From Nemertoderma westbladi (lineage: Eukaryota > Animalia > Xenacoelomorpha), in assembly GCA_032718475.1 (NCBI GenBank), contig JAUCBJ010006873.1, positions 1 to 64,000 of the forward strand: DNA of 64,000 bases. The letters are read 5' to 3'. A program made the translations under genes and the position numbers. Positions 5,222 through 30,304 of the stretch are shown in pieces (position 1 is the first letter of the stretch; every line of letters begins with the position of its first letter). The notes under the pieces are model-generated. The model searched no databases. It saw only the letters and a program-made list of their open reading frames with translations, and was not told where the DNA came from.

Positions 5222-6283
5222 CTAAATTTTCTCTCGGTCATTCGATAATAGATCAGTCTCAACCTCCCCCCATTGATATGAATCCGCTTTTGCAAATTCT
5301 ATTCGAACCTGATTCAGTAATGCTATATGATCAATAGCAGACTTACTTATTGAAGTTGCATTGTCTAATGCACTTATATTATCAGTAAGTATATTTCCTA
5401 TATTTGGCCCTCTGCCAAACATTATTTGATGTGGTGAAAATCCATTATTAGCAGGCCAGGCATTTTTAACAAAGGAAGCCATTTGCAAAATCTTATAATC
5501 TTTATAAGTTGGATTTTCCATCTTTATCCTTTGATATATTTCCTTGATGAGGCCATTATGACGCTCGGTCATACCATTGCTAAATGGTGAGTATGGGGCA
5601 GTTACCTCGTGAAAGACATTGAGTTTGTTGCAGAATTCTGTGAAACTAAGGGCACTGAATTCTCCACCATTATCACTCCTCATTACTCTGTTTGGAGGTC
5701 CAAATATAAGGCACCATTTATCAAGAATTGCAATTTGGACGGATTCTGAGAGTTTATTAGGTAATAAGACAGTCATGCTAAATCTTGAAAATAAATCAAT
5801 TATGTGTAACACAGGTTTAGTGATTGACAGAAAGAAAAGGTCAAGTCCGATTACATCATTAGTAGTATTGGCTACAGGTAACCCCACAATAGGATTACTA
5901 GGCTTTCTGCCAATACATTTGCATGTTTCGCAACTGTTGGTGACTTGTTGCACAATGTCATTGTAATTGTTGCCACAGTTGGCTATAGAATCTTGAATTA
6001 ATTTTATTAATATTTCCTTTCGAGGGTGGGCAAACTGTTTATGTAACTTTGATACATCTGCATAGGAAAGCTGTATTTTATCAGGTTTAGAATTATAAGT
6101 TAGTAATTCATTTGCTTCAGATTGATCTTTTGTGTGTATGGTTGTAGAATAACTAGAAGAAGGTGGTGAGATATTAATAGCACTATGACCTGATGATAAT
6201 TCAATAAGGTGAATTTGTTTGCCATTAACAAAAGCCATGTTTTCTTTAACATGTAATATCATATCTAGCTTTGCCAGTGTTGC
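5222..6283 (-). mobile_element. Copia-like (GalEa-like) pol fragment: protease C-terminal end plus integrase, in frame with GPCR exon 2
   Basis: KLHKQFAHP...CETC (HHCC), IGLDLFF, RSDNGGEF-x-SNGMTERHN (D-35-E); the order protease tail (IELSSGH) then integrase is Copia-type; junction position approximate. Confidence 0.85.
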
Positions 6284-7130
6284 AGCGGCGTTTATGGATG
6301 GACTCGGTTGCTGAGACAACTGCGCAGTTTCCACAGGAATGACTTGGAGTTCATGATCCTCCCAGTTATCCACAGAAACACCTTCATCCTCCTCTTCTTC
6401 TACAGTAGATGGGGATCTTTCTTTTATCCTGAACGACGGCCATGTTATTCTAGATCTTTTGATTGAACTTTTGAGGCCAGATGCATTTTCGTCTGCTACA
6501 GATTTATCAAAATTATATTCTACAGCGTGAATGTCAACATCCGCTTCATGATTCTTCACTGTTTCCTCTGTGTCATTGTCAGGGTTTCGGCTCTTCAAGT
6601 TGTTATGCTTCTCTTCGAATCCGCTACTGGATGTGTTTATTGTGATAGACGGTAATACCGCTTCAACGATGTTTGGCTCTCGCGATACCTGCGTTGTAAT
6701 TGTACCGGGTGGCGATGAACTTGTGTCAGATATTCCACGACGAATCAACGCAACCTCTGCATATTGACCCCCAATACCACCGATCTGTGTAGTGCATTGA
6801 TGTAGAGCTGCTATCGTAGATTTTTTACCCCTGACTTTGCGTTTTATTCTTCTAGCGATGGCGAATATCTTGTAGTAGATCACTAGTATTATCGGTAGCG
6901 GTATCCAGTACACAAATACCGCTACTGCTGTTGTCACATAAGGGTTGTCGTTGTACTGGGTGTAGCAATCAGTCTCACTTACGGTTCTCATACCCACGAA
7001 ATATGGCCACCCTATGATTACAACAGAGAAGGTCACCAATGCCGTTATCCATGTTCCTATTATTGTGATAACCGCTATGGTTTTGTTCATGTTGTTTCGG
7101 TAGGAAACCGTGTTGCTAACACTCCAATAC
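5222..7130 (-). CDS. GPCR exon 2 (end of DRY, TM4, ECL2, TM5, ICL3), open through the integrase to the stop at 5222
   Basis: Acceptor tttgtttcag|G at 7131/7130; YWSVSNTVSYR, TM4 GTWITALVTFSVVIIGWPYF, ECL2 Cys (DCYTQY), TM5 VYWIPLPIILVIYYKIF. Confidence 0.85.
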
Positions 7131-8239
7131 CTGAAACAAAGTTGAGTAGTAATTACACATTGTGAAACATGGACAAAATTATGATTATTAGTAAATAATA
7201 ATTTATTTGATATATATTGGACTTACACCAACTCTTCCGTTATTTCGTATTTTTATCTAAATAAAGAGTTTTGATCACCTTTGAAGTGTTTAAAGAATGA
7301 TAAATCAATTTTCACTTGCAGTTAATATAAAGTTAAAATTATACAGATTGTATATATTTGATAGATGACAAAATAGGGGATGGGGCATTTTGTTATTATA
7401 GATCAATATCCTGACATCAGAACTGTAATCGGATCTATTTTTGTTTAATTTCCACTAATGAAATTTACTTTCTCTTATCTTTAATTATCCCATGGCTTCG
7501 TAATTTCCAATAATAGGAATTGACGTTAAGTAATATAAGTAACCAACTCTTTGGTAATAAATACTCTTGCAAATAATTCCAGTGGAAGAAGTAAAGGGAA
7601 AATGGGTAAATTACTTCTCTGTAGGAAAGTAGTGGGATGTACCTGTTTGTTGGCCAAACTGCAGCCTAGTTGGTGAACTAATCAACGGCCAAGCAGATAA
7701 TCAGTTTTTAATCCTTTGGCTGCTGTTCCTGGGCTCGGGGCAGCGCCTTGTTCCCCGGGTTCCAGGACATTTCTTTTACAATCAGTTGTAATTTAACTAA
7801 TTTGCGAAACCTAATTTAGTTTCTGTTCAAAGAGAATAGCTAATTTTCGAGTATGTTTTTATTCTCTCACACTAATCAACTATTGTCTGGTTCTCTTTCA
7901 CCAAATGGATGTGAGAAGAGATGACAGAGAGGTCCGCATATACACCACTCCGAATTTTGTATTTCTCAATTCCTAAAACGAGCTAAGGGTTTAACATGGC
8001 GAGAATTCCATTTTGGCGAATCAATAATATGACGTTTCTGCGTTTTATGATCAAATAAGTGAAAGGAGCAGTTTACAGTGACACATATACCAACCAACAT
8101 ACTAAAATAATTATTTTGATTATAGTCGAAATTGACTTTGCTTTCACTTTCGATGTTAGATAAAGTTAATATCAAAATGTATCAATAATGATGTATTATC
8201 GTAGTTTTATATTATTTTATAAGTTGGTTGTATGCCATA

Positions 8240-8474
8240 AGAAGGCGGGGTAGCTCAGTTGGTTGAGCGCCGGGCCTGCAATCTAATGGTTGTAGGTTCA
8301 GCCCCGCCAGGGTCCACTCAGCCTTTCATCCACTGGGGTCGATAAAATGAGTACCAGTTAAATAACTGGGAGCAAATCTTGGGATAGGAGTAGCGCCCAC
8401 CCCTACCCTCGGGTAGCAGCTATCGAAAGAGGAGCCTTCGGGTCGCCTCCGGCTTCGGCCGACTGTTTGCTTGC
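8240..8474 (+). mobile_element. tRNA-derived SINE with conserved central domain and 12-bp TSD
   Basis: A box TAGCTCAGTTGG, B box GGTTCAAGCCC, central CCACTCAGCCTTTCATCC...GTCGATAAAATGAGTACCAG, (TTGC)n tail; TSD TTGTATGCCATA at 8228-8239 and 8475-8486. Confidence 0.9.
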
Positions 8475-8689
8475 TTGTATGCCATAGTCTTGGATCTATT
8501 AATTTTCGATACCTTATATGTAAATACACCAATATACCGGTAGTAAATATAATTATCGGAATAAAATAAATACCATTAAAATATCAAACATTTGTCTGAA
8601 ACTCGTTTCTTATTAGTTAGTATATAAGACGATGTGGGGGTCTGCTAATTCTTCCAGTTCTAGTTATCATAGGGTCGGAAGTAGGAAGG

Positions 8690-11047
8690 TTACGAGCTGC
8701 AGTTCCATTATTATTACATGAGTTGACTGTGTGACAGTATTATCTGTTAGAAATCCTTTGGGTAATAATTCGGGTTGAATTGGTCTAATGAAGATTCTAT
8801 TTCGCCAGAGTACACCTGTGGAGTGGAGGTAAACTCTAGTCTGTACAGGCAATGATTATTGGAACCAACTACTGTGGCTAATTTATCCCATCTCCGAGAT
8901 AATGGATTTTGAACAATGACTGTTGAACGGTCATGAAGAATGGTCATAATAATACTTTCGTTTTTCAGCAGTTTGTAAACGGTTCTGATCAGCTATATTT
9001 GTATCCATCTGCCAATCTGCATCATAGGACCGCCAATGAGTAGGTATTAAAGATCTGAATGGGTGATCGAAAACGATTGGGCTGGTGATAAACCATCTTG
9101 ATAAGGCGTATTGCGTAATTCTAGAAGGCCTGTTAAGAATTCCTGTGAATGGATATCACCGCCTGTTTTGGCTAATAAATAATTATTTTTTTTACATTAC
9201 TTTCGGCATGTCCGTTTCCTCTTGGATAATATGTGGAAGACAGCTCCCATTTTACTCCCAATTCACTTAGGAAACGCTGCATTTCCTCTGCTTTAAATTG
9301 TTGGCCATGATCTGATGTTAAAATGTTGGGTACTCCAAACATTGCAAAATATGATCTAAACCCTGACATAGTGTTGGAAGCAGACAGACAATTATTCAAT
9401 GAATGTACCAAAACATATCCAAAAGTGCGATCGGCATAAATAAGATAATGTTTGTCACTATATTGAAAAAAATCAGTTGAAACTGATTGGAAAACTCTGG
9501 AAGGAACTTCATGGTGTAGCATTGGGTCATTTGGTAGAAGTGGGCGGATTTTTTGGCATTGTAAACAAGATTATACCATGTTTGTAATATCTAATGTGTA
9601 TCCTGTCCAATAAACTGATTGGCATGCGCGTCTTTTCGTTCTACCGATTCCTTGGTGACTAGCATGCAATAGTTTAAGCACATCTCGAATAGGTGATGGT
9701 GGTTTGACAATCTGCGCACCTCGTAAAATAAGCCCATCATCAACTGACAGATCATTGGAGATTTTCTTAAATTGCTGAATGTATTGAATGGAGTGTTTGA
9801 TATTGCAAGAGTTATTTTCTATGGCATCTATTAGGAGTTTGTATTTTTCATCTCATTCGGCCCGATCTTTTAAATTGTTAAGGATAATATCAGGAATTTC
9901 GGCCAATGAAAGATAATTTTCAATAGCATTCATGTATAAGGCTGAACATTCACCAATATTCTCATTATCTACATTGTGGATATGTATATTATGGATTCTG
10001 GATAGGGCATCAGAGACAATGTTTTCTTTGCCTTTCACCCATTTTACAACAAAATTATAACTAGTCAACTTTGAACGACAGTTCAAAACTCGAGTATTTT
10101 CGATATTAACAATGCCATAACTATAAATTTGATTCCAGAGGTTTATTATCTGTTATAATGGTAAACAATTGTAGTCCAGCAAGATAAACATGGCATTTTT
10201 GTATTGACCAATAAATAGCTAGTGATTCTAGTTCGACCATTGCGTATCTCGTCTCAGGTTCTTTTTGGAATCTGCTCCCATATTGTATTAATCGCCACTT
10301 TCCAGCTTTTCAGATTTTGTAATAATACAAATCCAATACCTTGTAACCCTGATACATCAGTTCGTAGAAATGTTTCTGAATTAGGATCGAACATACCTAA
10401 TATAGGAGATGAAGTCAATAATTTGTTCACATTATTGAAGGCCTGTGTATGTTCAGGTATCCACAAAAATTCATTTTTCACCAGCAGAAGAGATAGTTGA
10501 ACTGAATGATCCTAGTTGGTTAATAAGACCTAAAAAAAACTATGGAGGTCTGTACGAGTGGCTGGAGATGGAAATTCTGTAACAGCAATTAACCTTTTGT
10601 TGGTTGTTGGTTGTTGTAACAACTGCTATGTTACCATGGGAGACAGTAAATCCAACAAAGTCGATTTTTTCTGAACAAAGTATTGATTTCGTTTTATTTA
10701 CTGTGAGGTTATAATGTCCACATCTTTCTAAAACTTCACATAGATACTAAAGCTCATATGCTAGGTGATCCAATTCCAATATCATATATTCCTTTCTGAA
10801 TGTTCAAACTAATAAAAGCCTGGTCTCCACGGTAAGAAAACTATCTCCAGTTGATATAAAACCCATTGGAGATCGTAAAAATGTATACTCACCAAATGGT
10901 GTAATAAAGACAGTTAGATCAGGGCTTTGCTGTCTAACGGCATTTGCCAATAACCCTTTATGAGGTTCAACCAGTAAATAATTTATCAGTTGTGGAAAAT
11001 CCAGAAATATACTCTTTTGGGGTTTTTGTATGGTATGAAGTTCGCAT
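8690..11047 (-). mobile_element. Decayed Ty3/Gypsy pol, 3' part (RT, RNase H, integrase)
   Basis: TPFGEYTFLRSPMG (RT); RTDVSGLQGIGFVLLQ and VKGKENIVSDALSR (RNase H); HASHQGI..CLQC, STDFF, SDHGQQF, GNGHAESNVK (integrase); many stops and frameshifts. Confidence 0.85.
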
Positions 11048-11058
11048 GACCTGTTTAT

Positions 11059-14000
11059 ACCTGTTTTCAGGTCAGGTCAGGTATTCTAGGTCATTGATCA
11101 AGAAAACTTGCCACCTCCCCTCCATGCAGCATAAAGGAGGTGCCACCTGTAGCTGCATAGACCATCTTACTAGGGTAAATCTGGTCCTGTAACTAGGTCT
11201 TGGTCCTGGATTAAGGACCCATATACTTGGCTGCAGGGATATATGGCATGGCCAGGCAGATGGTGATCTACCAATGGCTGGTCAGGAGTAGAGTGTTCTC
11301 GTGTCTACTCTGAGTGCACTTCACTGCGACCTGCACCTGGCAGCAGGGGTGCAGGTCATGACCCAGCAGATGAGCTGCACAGCCAATGGTGGGTCATGTG
11401 CGGCGCCAGAGTAGATATGGGTGATGGGCTTCATATCTGACTCCACTGCGACACCCACCCTGTGGAATGTCAAACCAGGTTGTGGTATTTGCCCCGAGAG
11501 CTGACTCGGCAAAAAAAAGACCCCCCAACCCCCACTATGGATTACATTAGTAATGCGGAGGTCCGGCCACTTTTCGGCCAGTGGAATTACTGGACACAAT
11601 CGGCCTCACAGGCGTCAGTTATCTCCTGACCGGCTGCCTGTCTCATCCCCTACTGGAGAGAGAGCAGCCAACAAAAGTCCCTTTCCTGATGACCTTTCTG
11701 GCCCAAACCCTGGGTCACCAGGGAGGCCACATTGTGAGGGGGAGATGGATTCTGGAGTTGGAGGCTACTCTCATGTTCCACCCCGAACAAAGCCATTGGT
11801 GAATCTGAGGCAAGTCACTAGACTAGCCTCAGTAAACACCCTAACACTCGGGACCCCAATACGACAAGGTGAGCTGACTGCTTTGGCAGATAAGCTTTCT
11901 CTTAGCGCAGTGGGTGTTCAAGAGCACTGAATGCAGACTGGACAGACTGATGAGGTTCTGATTAAGGACATGGGGGCAGTTGGCGACTCGCCCTCGCATC
12001 AGCAGATGATAGTGGCAATGTTGGAATTGGTCTATTGATGAATCCAACTGCACATGCAGCATTGGACAAAATAGACCCAAATCTCTAACCGCATCATCTG
12101 TTGCCACTTCTAATGTTCTGGAAGACTGGCTAAGAAGTTTCTTCAGGTGGTTCTGATCGTGTGCTACTCTCCAACTAGTGTTGCCCCTGTAGAGGAGATG
12201 GAACATTTCTACCACAATCTATAAGCAGCTACTGATGGAGTGGATCGGCATGCATTCTTAACATTCCTGGGAGACTTTAATGCAAGTCTGCATCAATCAC
12301 CTACATCGCCCTGGGTTTATAGTGTTAACCTAAATTCCGTCCATCTTCAGGATTTTATCTCTGGAAATGGATCGTTTTCGGCTGATACCCAGTTCAAGAA
12401 GCGAACTGGAAAGCTATGGAAGCATAGTGGACCCAGTGGTCACAAGTCCCAGATAGACCATATTCTGTTTCGTAGGAAATATAGGAGCTCTATATAAGAC
12501 TGTAATGCATTTACACGTCGACCCTTCTCCAGTGATCACCACCTTATTGTAGCCAAGGTATGACTTAGTCTGCGTGCTAGCAGAACAACGAAATCTGCCT
12601 TGCCGCGGCATGACTGGTCCTCTCTGTTGCAACAGCCAAGTGTGAGATCCAGCTTCACACTACAGCTGAGCAACAGGCATGAGGTTTTTGCCTTTGAGGC
12701 GGCAGATCACTGTGAGGGCTGTACTGCCTTCACAGAAGCAGTTAAGTTAGCAGCTCCAGAAACAGTTCATGTATACCCTCGAAACAGGAAAAGGACCCCC
12801 TGGACTGACAGCAAAATTCAGTTATGCCGAAATGACCTCTATAAGGCGCACAAAGAGTCCCATCTCAAATAGACTACAGCGGCAAGAATGCAGTTAAATC
12901 TGCATCTAGGTCCTGAACAGGCAGTAGTCTGTTAATCTACAGGAGTTAATAAACAGGAGTTGCTTACTGGGCGGAAAAGCCAACCAACCACCAAGGTTAA
13001 GGCTGAATCACCAGCCGATCGCCTCAATGGTTGGAAGGCCCACTTTGAAAAGCTCCTCAATAATGACCCGTATTGCCTGATAACTTTATAAAAGTAAAAG
13101 TGTCTCAGTCTGTACTCCCAGATATTCCAATTGGCCATATCTCCTTTGCAGAAGTAAAGGCTGCTGCAAAGAGCATTAAGACCAATAGTGCCAGTGGAGT
13201 AGATGGTGTTCCCCGTGAGGTCTTTAAAATATCTGAGTGTTTAAAGCTCATCTATCCCATCATAGTAGACATGTACCGAACAACAAGAGTCCCACAAGAA
13301 ATGAAAACAAATAAGTTGGTGCCAGTTCCTAAGAAAGGCAACCTAACACTCTATGCTTCTTTTCGGGGAATCTCCTTGATCTCGATTGCTGCAAAGCTAT
13401 ACAATAGATCTATGATTCAATTAAATCGCATCAGGGATCCCATTAAGAGACTGCTCCATGGAAATCAGAATGGGTTCTGTAAAGGTCGTGGGACCATGGA
13501 GCCAATTTTGGCACTTAGAAGGATAATTGAAGAGTTATCAAACAAGAAAGACAGGCATCTGGCTGTTATCTTTGTTGACTTCTTCAACGCCATTGATTCA
13601 GTCTCTCGCTCACGTATGTTCAGCATACTTTCATTATATGGGATTCCTGATGAAATTTTTGCAGCAATAAGATCAGTATACGATGGTTCGACAACATTTG
13701 CGTCTACTGTTGACGGTGACACAGAAGCAATTGTAGTGTTATGGGGCGTCCTCCAGGGAGACACACTTGCACCATTCTTGTTCATAATTGTGGTTGACTA
13801 TGTTCTATGCATGTCCTTAGATCATCATAATGATGGTGGGGTGATGATAACTCCACCTACTGGCTCCAGAAGTCGAGGAAAGCCTGCCAAGTACCTAGCT
13901 GATCTAGACTTCTAGGCTGATGAGTTAGGAGTACTCTCAGAATCACTAGAGAGAGCCCAACGGCTCCTCAGCTCATTAGAACATGCTGTTTCTAGTGTTG

Positions 14001-14734
14001 GTCTTTCTATTAACTCCAGAAAGACCAAAATTTGGACAGTTAGCTTTGAAAGTCCTCAGCAAGTCTCTGATCGGATGAGCATAAGCTCAAAGGATGGTAT
14101 GCTTGAGCATGTGGACGACTTCTGTTACCTAGGATCATGGATCCAGAAGTCAGTTTTTTCCGTTTCTTCGAATACGTGAGGGAGAGGAATGGGCAGCCAT
14201 GAATAGGCTTTCCAGGATTTGGAAGTCACCGAGAATTAATCGGAAACTTAAGGTCCGATTATTTAGAGCAGCAGTAGTTCCAGTACTCCTCTATGGGAGT
14301 CCATGTTGGGCTCTAACTGCTGAGGACACCAAATCTCTGGATGGCACATTCACAAGAATGCTATGCCGGGTTCATTGTGTGAAGTACAATGCAAACATCT
14401 CCCACCAGACACTATATAACATTGGAGGTGTCTCATTGGTTCCCCCAAGCTTGACACTAGAACAAAATCGCCTCCGCTTTGCAGGACATTGTTTTTGCCA
14501 TGAGGACCAGCCAGTGCATAATCTTGTACTTTGGCAGCCTCATGGAGTGAATAAGCATGGTGGACAGCCCATGACTTTCTTGAGACGCATCTTAAAGGAT
14601 ACTGGCCTTGAAGATGCGGATGATCTAGCAAATGTCATGGGTGATAGGGAGTTGTGGCGGCGCAATTTTGTCGACAAGCTGGCACAGCATTCTTAAAAAT
14701 GTAGCTGCAATGCAGCATGCCGATCCTAGTAGTA
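11059..14734 (+). mobile_element. Apparently full-length, mutated RTE-clade LINE (APE endonuclease + RT) inserted in the Gypsy pol
   Basis: VGVQEH, LGDFNA, SQIDHIL, SDH (APE); FRGISLIS, QNGF, GVLQGDTLAPFLF, DLDF*ADE (RT); RLRFAGHC; short (TAG)n tail; TSD GACCTGTTTAT at 11048-11058 and 14735-14745. Confidence 0.92.
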
Positions 14735-14745
14735 GACCTGTTTAT

Positions 14746-19060: not shown

Positions 19061-19671
19061 TAGGACATAGGTATTAATTATATATTACTAAGGTAATATT
19101 ACTTTGTCAATGACAAACTTGGGGATACCTTATGTTAATCCTAACTATATTACTAATTAGAATATGAATTTTAATTATATGAAGAAATATAAGTTTTCAC
19201 TCTAGATAAAACAACGACCTAATTAAAAGCAAACATCGTTCAATGTTAATCAAATCTTATTGTATTTGTATATATTATTTCAGAAATCCTAAACCTCATA
19301 TCGTAAATTGGAAAAAATCGAATTAATATCGAAACTTTCTTCTAACTTCCAAACTTCTAACCTACAATTTTAAATTTTTATGCAGATTGTAAATTTAATT
19401 GTCTTTATTTATGACCTAATTCATTGTGTTCAGTGCGTTAATATTATATTTATATTGCAATGAAATACTTCAGGGGAAAATATAGAAATTATTGAGCACA
19501 AAAAATAAGCAAACATGGATGTTTTATTAAATATAAAACAGACTAATAGCTATAAAAGTAACTGTAACAAGTTAGGAAGACTAAATTGCTAGTTAGGAAC
19601 GACCTTATTTATTTTCCAATTTTCCTTGCGGCCATTGTTTGTTAGGTAAGTATAATTGGGGGGTAATTGTC

Positions 19672-20209
19672 TGTTAGCGAATCAATCCCGCCAATACTCC
19701 ACAAAGTTAAGCCAATAAGCAATATTGGGGGACACGAGATTAGGTCCCAAACCAACTCGTGTCTCCCCAACAGAATGGGAAGGAGAAGCACACAATAAGG
19801 GTCAGGGGTTAGTATCCTGACAAGGGAGAGAATAGCTGGGGTGAACGGGAACACCTCAAAGGGCGCCAACAAGGGTAGCAACCAATCAGAGGGGGGCTGG
19901 CACCGATTGAGTAGCAATAAGGCCACCGTGCGATATAACCAGTAAGCAGTAATCATATTACCTCAGTTATCTCAGTGTTACTGGTGGTACAGTAAGTTAC
20001 AATTAGGGAAGTACCGGGATTTTAGTTACCGTCATCCCGTCAACCTGTGAACGTCAGTGTATAACATCAATCTATATCTATATCTATATCACGTCTCAAG
20101 ATCACAATATAACGAACAACAGTAACCTCAACTTACACTCTTTCACACGGCGGGGACGCGTGAACTAAAACAGGATAAATCGGGTTCATCTCCGGATGAT
20201 CCCGTCACA
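19672..20209 (+). repeat. 5' LTR
   Basis: TGTTAGCGA...CCCGTCACA; TATATAA at ~19933. Confidence 0.95.
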
Positions 20210-20277
20210 GTAACTAAATAACAACTGCTGCCCTAGCCTAATAGACTCAGATACCACCAGCCACCAACAGACAAAAG

Positions 20278-22863
20278 ATGAGCGAGTCGGGTGAAGTGAC
20301 ACCCACGCGGACCCCGGACGACGACGATCTAACGATCCGCGAGGCCGCGACCAGGCGATATACGCCCACGACACCGGAGCCATCCGTACCGGGCGAACCG
20401 GGGATTCGAGTAGAGGGGGACCGCCTGGAACCAGAGATCGAGCCGGAGGATAGAGAGATCGGGCTCGAGGAAGAGAGAGACGAGTCGACACACAGCGGGG
20501 ATGTCGATACCGACGTCGCGGGCCAGCCACAGGCCGAGGGCGACGAACGGCCCACCGAGACGGCGACGGTGGGGCCGACGGTACGACGCCGGACCCGGAG
20601 AGACGACGGGGATGTCGACACCGATGTCGCCGGCCAACCGCAGGCCGAGGGCGACGCACGGCCCACCGGAACGGCGACGGTGGGGCCGCCGGTACGACGT
20701 CGAACCCGGAGAGACGGACGAGGGGTCGGCGACGAGGACGTCGGGGTTTCCGAGCGACTTCGACGGGCCTACAACGCGACCCGGAGACTGATAAAGGAGG
20801 CCAGAGAAGGGAAGAGGATAGACGAGGTAAAACTGAACCTAGGACTAGGTGAGTCGAATAGACATTTATATTATCTAGTGCGCTTCGGGCAGAGAGGATT
20901 GGCCGAGGAGAGAGCGACTTGGGTCGCCGAGGAACTGTATGACTCATGGCGGTATGGGAGTATAGAACCTAGGGTAGTGTACTTAGGGCCATACTTAATC
21001 GATGCCCGGGGTATAAAGACAGTAGGTTGGAACAGACCAGAGGAGGGCGAACCCGAGGTTGACCCCGCGGGTTCGGTCTCGTCGGTCGGAGGGAGTTCCG
21101 GAAAGGGGGGGAGAGCCAGCGGGTCGGGAAGGCGGAGGGAATCCGTCGCAACCGATAAGTCTGTTACATCCTCCGAAAAAGAAAGACGGGTGAGAGAGAT
21201 AGAGGCTAGACACCGTTTCAATGTAGTGGTAGAGGCGAATAGAGAACTAGGTAGACGGCTAGAGGAGGGGAGAGTGATGCTAGAGAGGGAAACGGTGTCG
21301 ATTAAAGAGTTGAGGGAGAGGGGCGAAAGGGCCGCGAGGAACCTTAGGGAGTGTGAGGAGATAGAGTTGAGGGAAGAGAGGGAACGCGAGAGAGAACGCG
21401 AGGCAGAACGCGAGAAACGCGAAGCAGAACGCGAGAAACGCGAGGCGGAACGCGAGAGAGAACGCGAGGAACGCGAGGCGAGAGAGAGAAGGGAACGAAG
21501 GGAACGCGAGGAGAAACGCGAGGCGGAACGCGAGAAACGAGAGGCGAGAGAGGAAAGTGAACGCGAGAAACGTGAGGCGAGAGAGGAAAGTGAACGCAAA
21601 GAGCGTAAGGCGAGAAGAAGAGAGGGGATTAGGAGAGAGCTGGAATTGATCGAGCAGGAAAAACGAGAGTCAAAGGAGAAAGTAACAAGAGTGGAGAGTG
21701 GCCAAATAGAGTTAGAGAAACAGCGAGACAAATTCGTAGAGTATACGGCTGTACACGCGCGCGAGGTGGAACGGGCGCGGGCAGGAGTGTCTGAGAGAGG
21801 GGCAGGCTCGAACATTTCAGAGGAGCCGGGGGCCGTGGATACGTTTATTAATACTCCACTGACAGGGACCACACTACGGACACGAAACTGGTGTGATCGT
21901 ACGAGCGGGGGGGGTAATAACACTAATACAGTAGATAACGCTAATATTAATAATACTGTATTGGACGACTCTAACCAAATTTTTATTGCAGGAAATACGT
22001 TACCTAATAGTAATAATATTATTTTAAATCAGAACGATTCTAATATTGACGTACAGAGTAATTCTAGTGATGTAGTTATACAGAATAGTCCAAATAATTT
22101 AAGTAATAATCCGAATTCGATTTCACAAAATGATCCAAATAATTTAAATAATAACCCGAATTCGATTTTACAAAATAATCCGAATACTGTTATAACGCAA
22201 CATATTGTTTCTAGCTTTGGTGCGCAGGATAATCACAGTGGTATTATTAATGTAGACGTGTCCAACGCACATAGCCCGGCGGGTGAGGGCCTGGTAGGCC
22301 ACGTAGTAAGTAGGCCGGAGACGGCGGGGTTGAGTCAACCCGGGGTGAGCCTGGTAGGCCACGCAGTGGGTAGACCGGAGACGGCGGGGTTGAGCCAACC
22401 CGAGGTGGGCCTGGTAGGCCACGTAGTCAGTAGGGTGGAAGTAGCGGGGTTGGGCCAACCCGAGGTAGGCCTGGTAGGCCTCGTAGTTAGTAGGCCGGAA
22501 TCGGCGGGGTTGAGACAACCCGAAGTAGGCCTGGTAGGCCAGGTAGTAGTGGAGAGAGGGGCGGGGGTAAGCGGACCCAGCCCCAATGTAAATGTTGTGT
22601 CGACGGGAGAAAAGTGTAGAGACGAGGTAGGAAATAGTGAAGTTAGATGTGGCGAGTGGGGGGGGGCTCCGAGCGCCCCACCACGTGAGATTAGCGGCGA
22701 GAAGGGGGGGGCGGAGAGCGCCCCACAAGAAGGGTACAGGAGTGTAGTAAGAGGTACCGAAGTTAGAAGTGGCGGGTGGGGGGGGGCTACGAGCACCCCA
22801 CCGCGAGAAGTTAGTGACGAGAGGGGGGGGGGCGGAGAGTGTCCCACAGGCGTCGGCGGATAA
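20278..22863 (+). CDS. BEL element ORF1: low-complexity/coiled-coil N-terminal Gag extension (861 aa)
   Basis: ER-rich coiled coil, Asn-rich tract, 60-bp repeats (GLVGHVVSRPETAGLSQPEV); joins ORF2 if one G is removed from the poly-G at ~22823-22832. Confidence 0.75.
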   Translation: MSESGEVTPTRTPDDDDLTIREAATRRYTPTTPEPSVPGEPGIRVEGDRLEPEIEPEDREIGLEEERDESTHSGDVDTDVAGQPQAEGDERPTETATVGPTVRRRTRRDDGDVDTDVAGQPQAEGDARPTGTATVGPPVRRRTRRDGRGVGDEDVGVSERLRRAYNATRRLIKEAREGKRIDEVKLNLGLGESNRHLYYLVRFGQRGLAEERATWVAEELYDSWRYGSIEPRVVYLGPYLIDARGIKTVGWNRPEEGEPEVDPAGSVSSVGGSSGKGGRASGSGRRRESVATDKSVTSSEKERRVREIEARHRFNVVVEANRELGRRLEEGRVMLERETVSIKELRERGERAARNLRECEEIELREEREREREREAEREKREAEREKREAEREREREEREARERRERREREEKREAEREKREAREESEREKREAREESERKERKARRREGIRRELELIEQEKRESKEKVTRVESGQIELEKQRDKFVEYTAVHAREVERARAGVSERGAGSNISEEPGAVDTFINTPLTGTTLRTRNWCDRTSGGGNNTNTVDNANINNTVLDDSNQIFIAGNTLPNSNNIILNQNDSNIDVQSNSSDVVIQNSPNNLSNNPNSISQNDPNNLNNNPNSILQNNPNTVITQHIVSSFGAQDNHSGIINVDVSNAHSPAGEGLVGHVVSRPETAGLSQPGVSLVGHAVGRPETAGLSQPEVGLVGHVVSRVEVAGLGQPEVGLVGLVVSRPESAGLRQPEVGLVGQVVVERGAGVSGPSPNVNVVSTGEKCRDEVGNSEVRCGEWGGAPSAPPREISGEKGGAESAPQEGYRSVVRGTEVRSGGWGGATSTPPREVSDERGGGGECPTGVGG

Positions 22864-25800
22864 TGCGCGGGCCGAAGTAGGTAAACCGCAACACACGGCG
22901 ACGGAAAGTAATAGGGGGACCGCGAGTGTCCCCAGCGGCGGGCGATCGAGCAGAGAGATGCAGGTTGACGCCGCGAGAGGGCGGACGGAGTGTCAAGCCC
23001 GATCAGAAGAGAGAAGAAGAACAGCGGAGTTTAACCGGGAGGTCAACGAGAGATCTCACGAGCGGGAATACTGCACTGAGGGAAGAAGAGGAGAAGATGA
23101 TAGGAGAAGCATCGCCGCGAACGATAGAAGAGTGAGGACGGATAGTGAGCCGTCGGTGATTGAGATGGAAGAAGAGAGTCGGTGGGGTCGAACTACGGGA
23201 GATTGCCGTCGTCCCGGAGAGACGCGACCCGACGAGGCGCACTACGCGCCGAGAGAGAGGTACGTGACGTACCGACGCGAAGAAGAGAGCAGCAGAGGGG
23301 GTCGAAGGGAAACTTTCCGTCGGGATGTACCTACCGATCGAGAATACGGTAGCCGCGGGGAGGACTATTCGAGAAGAATAAACTTCGATTCCGAGCACAT
23401 ACAGACTGTAGGACATACTGCAGGCCTTACTGCACATACCGTAGGCCATGCTGACAGGAGCACCGTAGGCGATAGGATAGCGCGGACAACGGGATTAGAC
23501 CCGGAAGTCGCGGAATACATTCCGGTAGGTAGGCCAGAAGCTGATAGGCCTATACCGGTACCAGTGCAGCAGTATGACTACAGCACCAAAGGTTATAACA
23601 TATACCCAGGGGAGGGGGGAATTATTGCGGATAAATGCATGGGCCCCAATATATTAACATCAACCCCAGTACCAAACATATTGGTGGGGGGGGGACAGGG
23701 TGACATTCCCCCATCGCAATATCAACAATATACCCCGATAGAAGCGAGAACGAATCCCTTGGACGAAAACAAATCGTGTGACACAGAAATATGGAGGGGG
23801 CCGCTACCCCCAATGATATACCCAAGTCAGAGGAGAGCAGAGAATAGAACGGGTGGACCGCACCAAGCAAGGGAAACCATGCAACACCCATCGAACCCAT
23901 TAGAGGCGCAAGCAGTGGGGATGGCCACGTTAATCGATGCGTTAAAAACAAGGATCGAGTTACCACCCGTGGAACCATTCAAATTCGATGGGAGTAGGCC
24001 GGAAGAATATCTTCAGTTTCGGCGCATGTATAGCAACGAGATACTAACAAAAAATTTGACGCAGGCGGAGTGCCTAAAGTATCTGCAAGTATACACGGGA
24101 GGCCCAGCATACGATATCGTGAGGCAATACCAGGGTATAGAAGGGGGCTTCACGACAGCATGGCGGGCACTGGACAGGGAATACGGGCACCCAGCCAAGA
24201 TCATCAGGCAAACCCTGAGAGGCATAACAACGGGTGGCCTACAGGATAATCCCGTTAGCATTAAGACGTTTGCTAACAAAGTTGAAAAGGCGCTGATCGT
24301 GTTAAAGACGTTGGACGCACCATACGAACTCAACGCGTCTAACAACATCACCACGATAGCGCAGGCACTGCCGATCTGGTTACGAAGGAAGTGGAGGAAA
24401 ATCGCTTTCTCCACACGGGAAGAGAAGGGTGTGGAACCGGGCCTAGAAGAGATGTCGAGCTTCTTGAACTATGAAGCCGAATTAATAACAGACCCAGTCT
24501 ATAGCGAGGATAGTTTGGGGACAAGCCATAAACCCGAACACGATCCTGCAGATCCATTCTCGAGAGTAGGACAATCACTACCACATGCGGCCACACAGGG
24601 GACTGCTAGTCCACAGTTAGCTGGTAGCAGGGCCACACCGTGGCGGGGACAGATTGAAAATAACACCATAAATAAACATAATCCCAATGTACCCAGTAGG
24701 CCGAATACAGACAACCAAAACACTAAATCGGTACATATAAACCTAGACGCGATACGTGAGGGACTATACAGGGAACGCTATAATCCAGGATTCGAATGTC
24801 AATTACATCGGGACGGAACACATAAGACCAGGAGTTGTAAGCACTGGCAAGCGTTGCCCAAACAAGATCGTATAGCCTACACAGACGCAAACGGACTATG
24901 TCATCGATGTGTGGTAGAAGGACACAGGTCCGGAGAATGTAGAGAAACAGCAGTCAGAGAGTCCGAGACTGGAGGCCAGGCAATGGCCACAAGCACGACA
25001 GAAGAGGAGAAGAAGAGAAAAGTACTACTCGGGGTAGTACCAGTAAAGATATCAGGAGAGGGCGGTCGATCAGTAACGACATTAATGCTGGTCGACAGCG
25101 GAGCAGCCTTCACGCTGGTGGAGAACTGGGTGGCCGAAGAGATAGGGCTAAAGACAAGGCCGAATAGAATGGCGGTGACTACCGTCTCGAGTAAAGATGA
25201 GGTCCTGGAGACGAGGGCGGGGCGGTGCAGGATAGCAGCGATTGCACCGGGATGCGACTATGGGGCGACGATCGACCCCATCCACATCATCGAATCGATA
25301 AACATCAACGCCAGGCGACCAACCAACATTGAGGTCGAGCAGTATAGATTCCTGGACGGTATCGATTTCTCAATACCAAAGGTGGACGTTAGGAAGGTGT
25401 CCATTATAGTAGGGATGGACTGCCCGACGGCCCACGAGAGAACGAAGACGGTCTTCGGCGAAGACAGGCAGCGGGACCCGACGGCGATCCTCACGCCGTT
25501 CGGATGGACGCTTAGCGGCCCAGTTAAAACTAAGATCCCATGCAGTGTGACAGAGACATCAGGGTGCATGTTACCAGGCACCGCAGGCGCAGAGGATGAA
25601 GAGGAGAAACAGGAGATAGTAGATCCAGATAGGGAGGTGACAGTAAGAAAGTGGGCAGAGGAGAGTAGGTTTCCCAGCAAGCATCGGTATGGAGATGGAG
25701 CGGAGCGGATGGCGAGGTGTCCGGAGGACAACACTCCGGGGGAGTGTCCAGAGGAGTGTCCGGAAGAGACGCAGGTCCGGTTTGGAGGCATACCGACAAG

Positions 25801-26101
25801 GGGGAAGTCGAGAAGGAAGGCAGGATGGAAAGGGATAGGACTATTATTCTACCTTCTGTTTTGCCTGTTCTTTCACTTTCTATTCATTCTGCCGGCGGGA
25901 GACAACAAGGAGGGAGGTGGCATTTTGACGCCAGAGGGCGAGATAGTTAAGAAGGGGGCGGAGAGACCCGATTTCAGAGTGGCAGAAGAGGGAGAACCAA
26001 TTCCTGGTGAGATGGAATTGGCGAAGAGAGTGCGGCGAATTCTACAGGACCTACAAGATCAGCAGTGGGAGAGTGCCTGTTGGAAGAATCGCCCTAGTTA
26101 A
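22769..26101 (+). CDS. BEL/Pao Gag (DUF1759-like) + zinc knuckles + aspartic protease, with a C-terminal hydrophobic segment
   Basis: LPPVEPFKFDG, LKYLQVYTGGPA, CQLH..H...SC, CHRCVVEGHRSGEC, LVDSGAAFT, ILTPFGWTLSGP; no YxDD, RNase H or DDE after it. Confidence 0.85.
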   Translation: MAGGGGLRAPHREKLVTRGGGAESVPQASADNARAEVGKPQHTATESNRGTASVPSGGRSSREMQVDAARGRTECQARSEERRRTAEFNREVNERSHEREYCTEGRRGEDDRRSIAANDRRVRTDSEPSVIEMEEESRWGRTTGDCRRPGETRPDEAHYAPRERYVTYRREEESSRGGRRETFRRDVPTDREYGSRGEDYSRRINFDSEHIQTVGHTAGLTAHTVGHADRSTVGDRIARTTGLDPEVAEYIPVGRPEADRPIPVPVQQYDYSTKGYNIYPGEGGIIADKCMGPNILTSTPVPNILVGGGQGDIPPSQYQQYTPIEARTNPLDENKSCDTEIWRGPLPPMIYPSQRRAENRTGGPHQARETMQHPSNPLEAQAVGMATLIDALKTRIELPPVEPFKFDGSRPEEYLQFRRMYSNEILTKNLTQAECLKYLQVYTGGPAYDIVRQYQGIEGGFTTAWRALDREYGHPAKIIRQTLRGITTGGLQDNPVSIKTFANKVEKALIVLKTLDAPYELNASNNITTIAQALPIWLRRKWRKIAFSTREEKGVEPGLEEMSSFLNYEAELITDPVYSEDSLGTSHKPEHDPADPFSRVGQSLPHAATQGTASPQLAGSRATPWRGQIENNTINKHNPNVPSRPNTDNQNTKSVHINLDAIREGLYRERYNPGFECQLHRDGTHKTRSCKHWQALPKQDRIAYTDANGLCHRCVVEGHRSGECRETAVRESETGGQAMATSTTEEEKKRKVLLGVVPVKISGEGGRSVTTLMLVDSGAAFTLVENWVAEEIGLKTRPNRMAVTTVSSKDEVLETRAGRCRIAAIAPGCDYGATIDPIHIIESININARRPTNIEVEQYRFLDGIDFSIPKVDVRKVSIIVGMDCPTAHERTKTVFGEDRQRDPTAILTPFGWTLSGPVKTKIPCSVTETSGCMLPGTAGAEDEEEKQEIVDPDREVTVRKWAEESRFPSKHRYGDGAERMARCPEDNTPGECPEECPEETQVRFGGIPTRGKSRRKAGWKGIGLLFYLLFCLFFHFLFILPAGDNKEGGGILTPEGEIVKKGAERPDFRVAEEGEPIPGEMELAKRVRRILQDLQDQQWESACWKNRPS

Positions 26102-26294
26102 GAGGTTTAGTCGTCCAATATTTTGGACTGAGGGGGGTGGGAATGAGGGCGAGACGCCCTTCCCACAAGAAATTAATTATTTAATTAAAAATAAATAATA
26201 ATAAATAATTAAATAATTAAAAATAATAGTTAGTAGAAGTAAGAAGTAGTTCGAAGATAGGAGAGTAGAGTTAGAAGGCGGCGGGGTAAGGGAG

Positions 26295-26660
26295 TGTGGC
26301 ATATTGTCATGCCACGAGTAGTAGTAGGGGGGTCGTGGGCACCGGAAGCGCCACGTAGAAAGTAGCAGTGGTAGAGTGGTTGTGGGCACCGGAAGCGCCA
26401 CGTAGAAAGTAGTAGCAGAGATTGGTTGTGGGCACCACGAGCGCCACGTAGATAGAGGGTTTTAGTTAGAGTTAGTAGTAGAGTGGTTGTGGGCACCGTT
26501 AGCGCCACGTAGATGGAGGTAGAGTTAGTAAGAGGGTACGTAGTACCGGTTGTGGTTGTGGGCACCGTTAGCGCCACGTAGATGGAGATAGAGTTAGTAA
26601 GAGGGTACGTAGTACCGGTTGTGGTTGTGGGCACCGTTAGCGCCACGTAGATAGAGATAG
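26295..26660 (+). repeat. Array of six conserved hairpin-forming units with variable spacers in the BEL 3' region
   Basis: GGTYGTGGGCACC-NNN-AGCGCCACGTAGA x6, preceded by hairpin GTGGCAT-ATTGTC-ATGCCAC. Confidence 0.85.
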
Positions 26661-27232
26661 AGTTAGTTGGAGGATTTTAGTCAGAGTTAGAAAAGAGTTA
26701 GTAGACTTAGCAGAAGGTTAGAGAGTTCTAGTTAGAGTTAGTAGAAAGTTAGAGGCTTTTAGTTAGAGCTAAAAGTAGTAAGAGTTAGCAGAGAGTAGAG
26801 TTAGTAGTTAGTAGAGTTAGATAGTTAGGGTTAGTAAGTTAGATAAGGTAGATAGTATGATAGCACAGGGGTAGCATTAGAGGTCAGGGCCTTAGAGAGT
26901 GGCAGAGATTAGAGAGGAAATAGTGAGAAGAGCTGTTGGCGAGAAGTTAAGAGTGCGATTCAGGCGTGGGGAGAGAGCGAGTTGAGTTAGAGAGCGAAGT
27001 TAGAATGGTGAGAGTGTTGGGGAAACAAAAATTGTGTGAGAGAAGCGCACGATCGGCCCGACACGAGACGCCGGAGGGTAGTGACATCATACCCATAGGG
27101 AGCGGCCTGGAAAGCCGACTCCAAAAGAAAAGATTTCCACCCCACACCCGATGCTAGATCGGGATCCAGCGGGATTGTAACGCACTTTATGGTTTGATGC
27201 TATCTTCACCAGGAAGATAGCATGGGGGGGAG

Positions 27233-27770
27233 TGTTAGCGAATCAATCCCGCCAATACTCCACAAAGTTAAGCCAATAAGCAATATTGGGGGACACGAGA
27301 TTAGGTCCCAAACCAACTCGTGTCTCCCCAACAGAATGGGAAGGAGAAGCACACAATAAGGGTCAGGGGTTAGTATCCTGACAAGGGAGAGAATAGCTGG
27401 GGTGAACGGGAACACCTCAAAGGGCGCCAACAAGGGTAGCAACCAATCAGAGGGGGGCTGGCACCGATTGAGTAGCAATAAGGCCACCGTGCGATATAAC
27501 CAGTAAGCAGTAATCATATTACCTCAGTTATCTCAGTGTTACTGGTGGTACAGTAAGTTACAATTAGGGAAGTACCGGGATTTTAGTTACCGTCATCCCG
27601 TCAACCTGTGAACGTCAGTGTATAACATCAATCTATATCTATATCTATATCACGTCTCAAGATCACAATATAACGAACAACAGTAACCTCAACTTACACT
27701 CTTTCACACGGCGGGGACGCGTGAACTAAAACAGGATAAATCGGGTTCATCTCCGGATGATCCCGTCACA
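27233..27770 (+). repeat. 3' LTR
   Basis: Copy of 19672-20209 directly after the PPT. Confidence 0.95.
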
Positions 27771-28012
27771 TTGTCCGTGGGGCAATAATCTGGGTGCTAA
27801 TAGTCCGGGAGGAATTGTCCGGGGGGCAATTGTCCTCGGGGGAAATTGTCCGTGGGCACTAGAACGGGGCGAAATTGTCCTCGGGGGGCAATTGTCTGGG
27901 GGGCACTTGTCCTCGAGGGGCAATTGCCCGGGGGCAATTGTCCTCGGATTAATTGTCCGCGGGGCAATAAGTCCGTGAAGGAATTGTCCTCGTGGGGCAG
28001 TTGTCCAGTCAC
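27771..28012. repeat. GGGGCAATTGTCC subterminal-type repeat array (MITE arm) that the BEL element inserted into
   Basis: ~14 imperfect 15-16-bp units; one more unit (GGGGGGTAATTGTC) lies left of the 5' LTR at 19658-19671. Confidence 0.7.
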
Positions 28013-29927
28013 GCGTAAATTGACAAGTTATATTTAACTAGCACAATTAAAATATTGGACTCTTAAAATTTCCTTTTGTCCAAGTGTAGTTAATATAATA
28101 TGTTTCTTGTTCTAAGATAAGGTAGGTTCTGTTTCATGAATTTGGAATTATCTCTACACAAGTAGGAATCACTAATTCTCTGACGTATTCAAAATGGGCG
28201 CGACTTTTCTATAAGTACCCAAATAAATGTCAGGAAATTGCGTCAATAGGATTTGATAAATGGTTTATTAAGTAGAATGTGCGTAATATTTTGTTAAAAC
28301 CATAAATAATGAAGTATTCATTAGGGCCTATAGATGCTGAATGGTTGGCCGTCATATTATATTTCCAGTAAGTTTGTGGTGAATGTTTCGTAAAGGTTAA
28401 TATTACCGAGATAGTAAGCCTTATGCTAATCCACTAGCTAACCTACTTAAAATGTTTAGATGCATTAGATTCACCTGTTATTAATAGCCATAAGAGTCAC
28501 TTCACCCCCATCATGGCTTCTCGTTTACCTCTATAGCTACTAGTTCAGGGCAATCCATTTAGTTTAGCGAAGATAATTTATTAGCTTGAAGGTAAAAGGC
28601 ATCAACTAGTATTAATGTTGATGGCCGAACCAGCTGGGGACATAAAATCTGGTTAAACAAAACCAATATATCGTATGACAATGTTCTTCGTTGTGGTATA
28701 ATAATCTCATAGTTTTATAAATAATTAATGTAATTTACTGCGCGTAAACTAGAAAATGTCAGGCAAATGCAATAAATTGAATGTTTGTTGATCAAGGTAA
28801 TTTGCAGCGTTTTCAGCTTAGCCTTAATTAATTACAAATAAACTTTTTCCAAACCCACCGTTGTTTTTACGAGATATGATATTATGTGGAAACATTAATG
28901 GGACTTGTACGTAAATGTTCCACAAAAGATGGTGTAGGGCCCGAGTACTATTTCATTGTGTAAAGTAATCGTTCATTGCGGTCGAGTTTGGGCGTCACAG
29001 TGTTTGCAGTATTGGAATATATTTTTTGCATATATCGTATCTCCCAATATTCATTAGAGATTTTCGTTGGCGAAATATTGTTAAATTAAATTGTATGCGA
29101 TTAATCAATATTTGATTGAAAATCAAATTTCTTGGGTTAATCGTATATTTCGATGAATTCCGGATGAAATGTAGAAGTTCTAGGTGTGATAACACCAGTA
29201 CTAAGCTATAACAATAACAGATAGCAGATCATAACAATATGATATTGATTAACAATAATGGGTAGCGCTCAACCTTACAATTACGAGTTTAATTAGGATG
29301 GCACGGAGGTTTAGGTGTACATTCTACCTACAACAATTAATAATGTAATATAATACAATATTGTGGAGAAGGCAGTGGAGAAGCTTTCGTTTGTTATTTA
29401 GCGAACTGTTCCATTTCATATAAATTATTAATTTTTTGCTTACAGAGGCTGATGAACACCTTCTCCAGCCGGCTAGAACATGGTAAACGGCCATATTGAA
29501 TGCTCGATTCGACATTCTGCCGGGAATTAATACCAAAATTGTTATCATGTCGTACAACACCAATAATGATTAATAAATATATTACCAAAAGGGATATTGT
29601 GAACTTATTTAAAATGTGACTTTACTTAATTCTTGAGGTAAAATAAAATTGCGCAATGTGCCACCCCCCCCCCCCCCCCCCCCAGAACTATACTCCCCAA
29701 AGGCAACTGGTGCTCATTTACCTACTATTTAATGAACAAGGCATGACACCTATTCGTGTGGCATTACAGGAGAGGTTAAAAAGCCTATCCTGTGTGAAAA
29801 TGTTTGAAAATAATACGGAATTTCGGAATTTCGTAACCTAGATACTGTTCTCTAAACAATTTCTTTAAATAATAATTGATTTATATATTTATTATTGATA
29901 AATTTTACATGAATGAATGAAACTTAC

Positions 29928-30304
29928 CTGTCAATACTGATGACGAGGATGTTAATGATGCTGGCATGGCAACAAGTATAATCCATAGTTAGCCAGGCAT
30001 CGCAAACAATACTGCCGAAGGGCCACCAGTTGAGAATCAAATAGATGGTGAAGAACGGTATTGAGAATAAACCCACGAGACAGTCGGCCAGAGCCAAACT
30101 GAGGAGGAAGAGGTTACTGGTTCGTTGCAACCTGCGGTCTGTACGGTAGGCTACCATTACTAGGATGTTACCGCCGAATGTTAGAACGCTGAATATCAGA
30201 GCTATCAGACTCCCGAAGAAGACGGCTGGAATGTTCCAGTTGCCGTTTGTAGTTGTTTGTGTCGTCGTCTCTGTTGTCAACAACTCAGTTGCGTTATCGG
30301 CCAT
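29928..30304 (-). CDS. GPCR first coding exon (N-terminus, TM1-TM3), muscarinic/histamine-type amine receptor
   Basis: MADNAT (N-glycosylation site), GNILV, SNLFLLSLALADCLVG, WPFGSIVCDAWLTMDYTCCHASIINILVISIDR (Asp3.32 present); donor AG|gtaagt at 29928/29927; acceptor at 30385/30384 and in-frame upstream TAG support ATG 30304. Confidence 0.92.

What the first reader, a model, noticed from the sequence alone, without database searches (positions are those of the whole stretch)
5222..30304. In-frame GPCR-integrase chimera: a 5-TM amine receptor whose ICL3 continues into an intact D,D35E integrase
Seen: canonical splicing 29928->7130 rebuilds DRY. Exon 2 stays open for 1909 nt, from TM4/TM5/ICL3 through ...SINAAA|TLAKLDMILH... 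into a protease tail, an HHCC zinc finger and a full D,D35E core, giving a predicted 761-aa protein. There is no LTR, stop or frameshift at the junction, and no TM6/TM7 (CWxP, NPxxY) ORF in the 5 kb downstream. Known: ICL3 is cytoplasmic, and integrases have been domesticated before (GIN1, NYNRIN). Inference: this is either a membrane-tethered domesticated integrase/receptor fusion, a deletion allele that fused by chance (1 in 3 in frame), or a misassembly. The ~340 stop-free integrase codons contrast with the decayed Gypsy element nearby.
Basis: partly seen in the sequence, partly recalled or inferred. Interest (0 to 1): 0.85.

Follow-up and report, generated by a model that had tools for sequence, protein, structure and literature searches.

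The report
Broken receptor allele abutting retrotransposon scrap
In this assembly an animal amine-receptor gene breaks off after five membrane helices and reads on in frame into a 1-kb scrap of a multicopy jumping gene, but all three sequenced samples checked continue the receptor at that point with a different, likely intact sequence, so this is likely a recent broken copy or an assembly error rather than a new kind of protein.

Summary
The sequence observation holds: GT-AG splicing 29928→7130 rebuilds DRY, and a 761-aa frame runs from TM1-5 and ICL3 into an HHCC/D,D35E integrase. The domestication reading does not. In 4 of 4 runs laid (3 samples, 3 studies) the receptor contig leaves the window at 6278 with the same other sequence; one of these contigs is spliced exon 1 to exon 2. 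In 3 of 4 runs, 5278-6282 lies inside a longer contig at 7-14 times the receptor's depth and about 99% identical: an internal piece of a young multicopy Copia element. It lacks the protease active site and the integrase's C-terminal part. No contig bridges the junction, a 5-bp microhomology; contigs can drop such links. The flanking haplotype is identical over 1523 bp to a sample that carries the other continuation, so the join is very recent or an artefact. The stop codon comes from an antisense Penelope-like repeat. Best reading: a recent microhomology-joined broken allele, in frame by chance (0.55); rival: chimeric read or misassembly (0.37); functional fusion about 0.03. The scan had no look-alike of this stretch. 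Interest low.

The parts
29928..30304 (-). Coding exon 1 of a class A amine receptor, likely muscarinic type: ATG, TM1-TM3 up to the DR of DRY, phase-2 GT donor
   Evidence: Pfam 7tm_1 E 3e-22; donor sequence; joined to exon 2 in the X4 contig
7131..29927 (-). 22.8-kb intron holding decayed retroelements (Gypsy-type, LINE-type RT, BEL/Pao-type gag-protease)
   Evidence: Splice seen in X4; Pfam pieces
6278..7130 (-). Receptor part of exon 2: end of TM3, TM4, TM5 and most of a long ICL3; single-copy depth
   Evidence: Pfam 7tm_1 model 84-202; best solved relatives muscarinic M1-M5; depth 27-46, contigs leave the window at 6278 in 4 of 4 runs
6278..6282 (-). 5-bp microhomology (CAACA on the minus strand) shared by the receptor and the element: the breakpoint
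   Evidence: Receptor contigs end their match at 6278, element contigs at 6282; chance of 5 or more shared bases about 0.007
5278..6282 (-). 1005-bp internal piece of a multicopy Ty1/Copia element: protease tail without active site, HHCC finger, D,D35E core; cut before the integrase C-terminal part
   Evidence: Depth 7.0, 14.2 and 8.2 times the receptor's; 10 differences in 1005 bp; contigs continue at both ends with other sequence; homolog alignments span residues about 277-617; 9 of 11 homologs scanned have rve then RVT_2
4691..5280 (+). High-copy repeat, likely the 5'-truncated 3' end of a Penelope-like element; supplies the last 18 codons and the stop (5222-5224) in antisense; 3-bp overlap with the Copia piece at 5278-5280, 8-bp tandem duplication at its 5' end
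   Evidence: Depth 160-2400 and loose ends at 4691 and 5280; 60-aa frame 4690-4872 whose nearest family-bearing Atlas cluster is GIY-YIG, 15% of members, score 0.90; no Pfam GIY-YIG hit; junction letters
5152..5212 (+). Hammerhead-like core (CUGAUGA, helix, GAAA) within the repeat
   Evidence: Motif positions; helix between them in the fold, but z only -1.0; no Rfam hit. A lead, not a test

Best explanation
The window joins the first five helices and ICL3 of an amine-receptor gene, through a 5-bp microhomology, in frame to a 1-kb internal piece of a multicopy Copia retrotransposon, and this is likely a very recent, private broken allele of a receptor that is likely intact in the samples checked. 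Likely mechanism (inferred): a DNA break was repaired by microhomology-mediated joining between CAACA in ICL3 and CAACA in the protease region of a Copia copy. The copy had itself been cut about 1 kb further on at a Penelope-like insertion. The event removed or displaced TM6-TM7 (deletion, or the end of a partial duplication or translocation). One in three such joins is in frame, and a young element has had no time to collect stops. If made, the protein would be a five-helix receptor without the TM6-7 half of its pocket, predicted to be non-signalling and possibly ER-retained, with a cytoplasmic integrase core that lacks its C-terminal part and its element ends. Shown: junction, splice, copy excess, the other continuation. 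Inferred: that the join exists in the animal, the repair route, and the fate of the protein.
For: 4 of 4 runs (3 samples, 3 studies) show the same other continuation at 6278, 421-1912 letters long. The X4 contig is spliced and goes on 1912 letters past 6278; its first 30 letters read by hand as ten open codons in the receptor frame, with a basic cluster. Element piece at 7-14 times depth, 10 differences in 1005 bp, continuing at both ends. Read-defined ends (residues 283 and 617) match the homology-defined ends (median 277 and 617). A 5-bp overlap is unlikely by chance (about 0.007) and far too short for an overlap assembler to join on (general knowledge). X1 and X2 match the window at 1523 of 1523 bp beside the junction while X3 differs by 13 substitutions and 6 gaps, so the join is younger than ordinary allelic variation here. 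The 13-kb 50-bp array is assembled with frames open over thousands of codons, which suggests accurate long reads (inference) and lowers the odds of a crude misjoin.
Against: No read or contig shows the junction (0 of 8 pieces), so its presence in a living animal is unshown. Sample S1 has the same flanking haplotype in two runs and only the other continuation is visible; if S1 is the assembled animal, an artefact is the simpler reading. Against 'no selection': 6 of the 9 listed differences in the element piece are synonymous (dN/dS about 0.13, binomial P 0.004). This is expected between lineages of an active element but would also fit selection on the fused copy. TM6-7 in the other continuation were not seen directly; only 30 letters of it are shown.
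Confidence: 0.55

Rival explanations
1. The join is an artefact: a chimeric molecule (template switch at a short microhomology during library amplification) or a misjoin glued the receptor locus to an unrelated Copia/Penelope-like locus, and no animal carries it.
For: 0 of 8 contig pieces bridge the junction. S1 is identical to the window over 1523 bp in two runs yet shows only the other continuation, as expected if S1 is the assembled animal and lacks the fusion. The continuation is nowhere in the window. Amplification chimeras form at short microhomologies (recalled, no call).
Against: Contig building drops rare links, above all a short low-depth link into a deep repeat, so the blank is not absence (tool text). 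The assembly looks base-accurate across long arrays. The element piece differs from the majority contig at the same positions in X1 and X3, like a real copy. Whether S1 is the assembled animal is unknown.
Confidence: 0.37
2. A partial duplicate of the receptor fused to the element segregates in the population beside the intact gene, is transcribed, and makes a five-helix receptor-integrase protein with some effect, such as dominant-negative dimerisation with the intact receptor.
For: Open 761-codon frame with canonical splice sites. Five-helix GPCR variants often act as dominant negatives (PMC3477067, passages read). Excess of synonymous differences.
Against: No branch at 6278 in the contigs of 3 of 3 samples; the spliced contig takes the other path. 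No divergence from the S1 haplotype over 1523 bp.
Confidence: 0.05
3. A fixed, domesticated receptor-integrase fusion gene with a membrane-tethered integrase.
For: Catalytic D,D35E and HHCC residues are kept and the frame is open; dN/dS about 0.13 against the family majority.
Against: Not fixed: 3 of 3 samples show the other continuation. The integrase is multicopy and 99% identical to its family, whereas domesticated genes are single-copy with orthologs (PMC3670739, passages read). 0 of 46 proteins hit by the whole exon-2 frame carry a 7tm_1 domain. The stop comes from an unrelated antisense repeat.
Confidence: 0.03

Closest known systems
Muscarinic acetylcholine receptors (class A GPCR; M1-M5 chains such as 9jea_A, 8e9z_A)
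   Same: Best solved relatives of the TM3-TM5 part (E 2.5e-12 to 8e-9, ahead of histamine H1 at 4e-6); TM3 aspartate in a WLTMDY motif; long ICL3.
   Different: The window copy lacks TM6-7. It has an intron inside DRY. The exon-1 search returned only 5-HT2-labelled and unnamed receptors at 41-51% identity (10 hits), so the subtype rests on exon 2 and was not tested by a tree.
Metazoan Ty1/Copia elements, GalEa-like (GalEa1, CoRex1, Zeco1)
   Same: Order protease-integrase-RT in homologs (9 of 11 with rve then RVT_2); zinc finger HX4HX31CX2C against HX4HX30CX2C given for CoRex1 (PMC3587641, passages read); named homologs come from fish and molluscs.
   Different: Only a 1005-bp internal piece is in the window: no LTR, gag, protease active site, RT or RNase H. 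Clade membership rests on RT/RH trees, not testable here.
Domesticated integrases GIN1/2, NYNRIN, KRBA2, SCAND3
   Same: Retroelement integrase domain in frame with, or acting as, a host gene.
   Different: Those are single-copy or small families with conserved orthologs (PMC3670739, passages read); this piece is multicopy, 99% identical to its family and not fixed at this locus.
Truncated 5TM GPCR variants (GHS-R1b, D3nf, CCR5-delta32)
   Same: Five helices and a foreign C-terminal tail; predicted non-signalling or dominant-negative (PMC3477067, passages read).
   Different: Here the tail is about 350 residues of retrotransposon, the cause is a genomic break and not splicing, and expression is unshown.
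Penelope-like elements
   Same: Likely source of 4691-5280: GIY-YIG-like tail, hammerhead-like core in the terminal repeat (PMC4209133, passages read); microhomology junctions and insertion into other retroelements are described (PMC3846280, passages read).
   Different: Only 590 bp; neither Pfam nor Rfam confirms it.

Membership tests
Domesticated integrase-derived gene | Single copy, diverged from active elements | tested here: not met
   Depth 7.0-14.2 times the receptor's in 3 of 4 runs; 10 differences in 1005 bp
Domesticated integrase-derived gene | Fixed in the species | tested here: not met
   3 of 3 samples carry another continuation at 6278
Domesticated integrase-derived gene | Orthologs in related species | tested here: inconclusive
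   0 of 46 hits carry both 7tm_1 and rve, no usable Atlas hit; no animal genomes of relatives could be searched
Domesticated integrase-derived gene | Expressed as the fused transcript | tested here: inconclusive
   The one spliced contig takes the other path; contigs cannot show absence of a rarer form
Domesticated integrase-derived gene | Purifying selection on the host-locus copy | tested here: inconclusive
   6 synonymous, 3 non-synonymous among 9 listed of 10 differences; cannot tell element-level from host-level selection
Ty1/Copia LTR retrotransposon | Integrase upstream of an RVT_2-type RT | tested here: met
   Met in homologs: 9 of 11 scanned; in the window the RT is absent, so the piece is filed by homology
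Ty1/Copia LTR retrotransposon | HHCC finger and D,D35E core | tested here: met
Ty1/Copia LTR retrotransposon | LTRs, gag, protease active site, RT-RNase H (complete element) | tested here: not met
   47 long homologs hit nothing of these in the window; no D[ST]G in the frame; no flanking repeat: a fragment
GalEa clade of Copia | Placement in an RT/RH tree with GalEa references | not testable with these tools
   No RT/RH in the window and no reference set fetched; only the zinc-finger spacing is close
Class A amine GPCR (functional) | TM1-5 with TM3 aspartate and DRY | tested here: met
Class A amine GPCR (functional) | TM6-7 with CWxP and NPxxY | tested here: not met
   Absent from the window; presence in the other continuation is inferred, not seen
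Muscarinic subtype | Grouping with muscarinic receptors in a tree | not tested
   Only similarity ranks: muscarinic first for exon 2, 5-HT2-labelled hits for exon 1
Penelope-like element | C-terminal GIY-YIG endonuclease | tested here: inconclusive
   Atlas lead, 15% of cluster members, score 0.90; no Pfam hit
Penelope-like element | Hammerhead motif in the terminal repeat | tested here: inconclusive
   Core motifs and helix present; z -1.0; no Rfam hit

The most novel reading that the evidence does not exclude
A real, newly arisen allele that is spliced and translated into a five-helix amine receptor carrying a catalytic-core retrotransposon integrase on its cytoplasmic side: a chimeric gene caught at birth, segregating beside the intact receptor and able to dampen it by dimerisation.
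Probability: 0.06. Interest if true: 0.6.

Novelty: new member of a known kind. Interest (0 to 1): 0.12.

Why it matters
As it most likely stands, it matters little: it is a transposon-associated breakpoint, or an assembly error, that would lead annotators to call a false receptor-integrase gene and miss the real receptor. It shows that an open frame across a junction with a young element is weak evidence of function. If the join proved real and expressed, it would be a rare snapshot of a host-transposon chimeric gene at birth; two full-text searches listed no paper whose title or abstract start describes a GPCR-integrase fusion.

Tried and rejected
No whole genome is held, so the intact locus, a second haplotype and full-length Copia copies could not be sought in the assembly. 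No RNA holder listed; this is no evidence on expression. X4 is labelled 'DNA?'; I read it as RNA-derived because its contig joins the two exons, but a processed copy in DNA is not excluded. X4 has no cover over the element piece or the intron; a part without cover proves nothing. Simple insertion of the Copia plus Penelope-like block into ICL3: rejected, since the receptor continuation is not in the window (0 matches); insertion with a large target-site deletion remains possible. Splicing out of ICL3 to later exons: not needed, since genomic contigs continue without a break; no GT[AG]AG donor lies on the minus strand between 6978 and 5346 (weaker donors were not scored). Word-indexed search with the integrase part alone: 0 of 817 candidates, a sensitivity limit, since one search found 19375. 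The species' intact receptor was not found in the protein collection. Receptor half against the 203 fetched proteins: 0 hits, but it also missed the 10 fetched receptors, so the test is weak; exon 1 hit those 10 and none of the other 193. Hydropathy at my threshold found 2 helices in exon 1 and missed TM3, which rests on Pfam. ESM Atlas for the whole frame: no usable hit. Rfam 4000-7500: one chance hit. No structure or complex prediction was run, as it could not separate the readings. Paper searches gave nothing used. Papers: passages read of PMC3587641, PMC4209133, PMC3846280, PMC3670739 and PMC3477067; no supplements opened; others seen as listings only.
Full report
Observation. The window holds a 666-codon stop-to-stop frame at 7222-5222 on the minus strand and a second frame at 30346-29924. 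An ATG at 30304, a GT donor after 29928 and an AG acceptor before 7130 give exons of 377 and 1909 nt, 762 codons with the stop. Pfam finds 7tm_1 on exon 1 (model 1-82 of 260) and on exon-2 residues 1-113 (model 84-202), and rve on residues 424-515. The integrase has HX4HX31CX2C and a D,D35E triad. Solved relatives of the receptor part are muscarinic M1-M5 first, histamine H1 next; the exon-1 search gave only 10 hits, 5-HT2-labelled or unnamed, so the subtype is likely, not shown. No TM6-7 is found in six frames of the window.

What the sequencing runs show. Six runs of one organism were listed, four holding the stretch; I laid those four twice. In 4 of 4 runs, from 3 samples and 3 studies, one contig covers the receptor down to 6278 at depth 27-46 and then goes on with the same other sequence, for 421 to 1912 letters. 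In 3 of 4 runs contigs cover 5278-6282 at depth 191-538, which is 7.0, 14.2 and 8.2 times the receptor's (contig depth is only a rough copy measure), differ from the window at 10 of 1005 places, and go on at both ends with other sequence. None of the 8 pieces bridges the junction. The two kinds of contig overlap by five bases, 6278-6282; five or more shared bases arise by chance about 0.7% of the time.

The spliced contig. The X4 contig (3252 nt) leaves the window at 7133 with letters that match 29931-29960, the end of exon 1, with one mismatch. It has room for all of exon 1 plus a 110-nt leader, and runs 1912 nt past 6278. So the predicted splice is real, and this transcript carries the other continuation, not the integrase. 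Its first 30 letters read by hand as ten open codons in the receptor frame with a basic cluster, as expected near the end of ICL3 (inference). TM6-7 themselves were not seen. That continuation is absent from the window.

What the inserted piece is. A search of 1.84 billion proteins gave 19375 hits. Of 11 homologs scanned, 9 have rve followed by RVT_2, the Copia order. I used the 47 hits of 1300 residues or more among the 147 new ids: their alignments span exon-2 residues 277 to 617 (medians), matching the read-defined ends at 283 and 617. A protease-type motif lies a median 75 residues upstream of the aligned start in 29 of 49 alignment rows, an RT xVDD motif a median 447 residues downstream in 39 of 49, and a WxGP motif a median 35 residues beyond residue 617 in 38 of 47 proteins; none is in the window. 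The piece is thus an internal fragment, cut inside the protease and before the integrase's C-terminal part. The finger spacing is close to that given for the GalEa-like CoRex1 (PMC3587641), but the clade was not tested. The last 18 codons and the stop come from a high-copy repeat at 4691-5280, likely the 3' end of a Penelope-like element on the opposite strand: a GIY-YIG lead from the Atlas, a hammerhead-like core, no Pfam or Rfam support.

Age of the join. X1 and X2 (one sample) match the window at all 1523 bases from 6278 to 7800, intron included, while X3 differs by 13 substitutions and 6 gaps. The fused haplotype has therefore not diverged from one that carries the other continuation; at the X3 rate, zero differences would have a probability near 5e-9 (illustrative only). 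The open frame needs no selection: 64% of simulations with 10 random substitutions leave the piece stop-free, and one join in three is in frame.

Result against my reading. Of the 9 listed differences between the window's piece and the run contigs, 6 are synonymous and 3 are not (dN/dS about 0.13, P 0.004; the tenth difference is not listed). This fits selection among active lineages of the element, but it does not exclude selection on the fused copy. Also, contigs drop rare links, so the missing bridge does not prove that no sample has the fusion.

Mechanism and rivals. Most likely (0.55) a break was repaired by microhomology joining between ICL3 and the protease region of a Copia copy that was already cut at a Penelope-like insertion, giving a recent private broken allele (or the end of a partial duplication). 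Microhomology junctions and insertion into other retroelements are described for Penelope elements (PMC3846280). A protein, if made, would be a five-helix receptor, predicted non-signalling and possibly dominant-negative like other 5TM variants (PMC3477067). The main rival (0.37) is a chimeric molecule or misjoin, favoured if sample S1 is the assembled animal. A segregating expressed fusion (0.05) and a fixed domesticated gene (0.03) are unlikely; domesticated integrase genes are single-copy with orthologs (PMC3670739), and 0 of 46 proteins hit by the whole frame carry a receptor domain.

Novelty. Two full-text searches listed nothing describing a GPCR-integrase fusion by title or abstract start, so a true expressed fusion would be new. 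The evidence points instead to an ordinary transposon-associated breakpoint or an artefact. The scan holds no look-alike of this stretch; one note on another genome reaches a similar by-product reading for a different in-frame join, which is not independent evidence. Interest 0.12.

Noticed in passing
window 46036-58910: 12.9-kb tandem array of a 50-bp unit (about 258 copies, 91-93% matches) with frames open over thousands of codons; it may be one of the splice-junction satellites that other notes report for this genome. Not checked against an exon.
   Followed up: no
window 20245-26101 (+): Two long overlapping frames (872 and 1116 aa) in the receptor intron; the second has DUF1759 and an aspartyl protease domain, like a BEL/Pao gag-protease (family label recalled), with no RT seen after it and a very long low-complexity N-terminal frame.
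   Followed up: partly
window 9172-17169 (-): Decayed Gypsy-type element (gag knuckle, RNase H, H2C2, rve in separate short frames), interrupted by a LINE-type RT on the plus strand at about 13067-14696.
   Followed up: partly
window 4691-5280 (+): High-copy Penelope-like repeat end with a hammerhead-like core at 5152-5212; parts of it are also covered in run X4.
   Followed up: partly
P0006, P0016: Database gene models that join this Copia-type integrase to host names or domains (acylglycerol kinase in Solemya velum; a 'CD166 antigen homolog' label in Trachinotus anak): likely annotation merges of the same sort.
   Followed up: no
window 59761-62948 (-): Two long low-complexity frames (483 and 307 aa; Arg/Ser-rich, Pro-rich and a 7-residue repeat) without Pfam hits; possibly exons of a neighbouring gene.
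   Followed up: partly
window 6548-6860: All 6 allelic differences in the receptor part of exon 2 (X3, X4) are synonymous, as expected of a working receptor gene in the population.
   Followed up: yes
window 1-667, 30622-30920, 34127-35135, 37659-38890: Further minisatellites (38, 23, 39 and 48 bp units); the 23-bp array of 13 perfect copies lies just upstream of the receptor's first coding exon.
   Followed up: no
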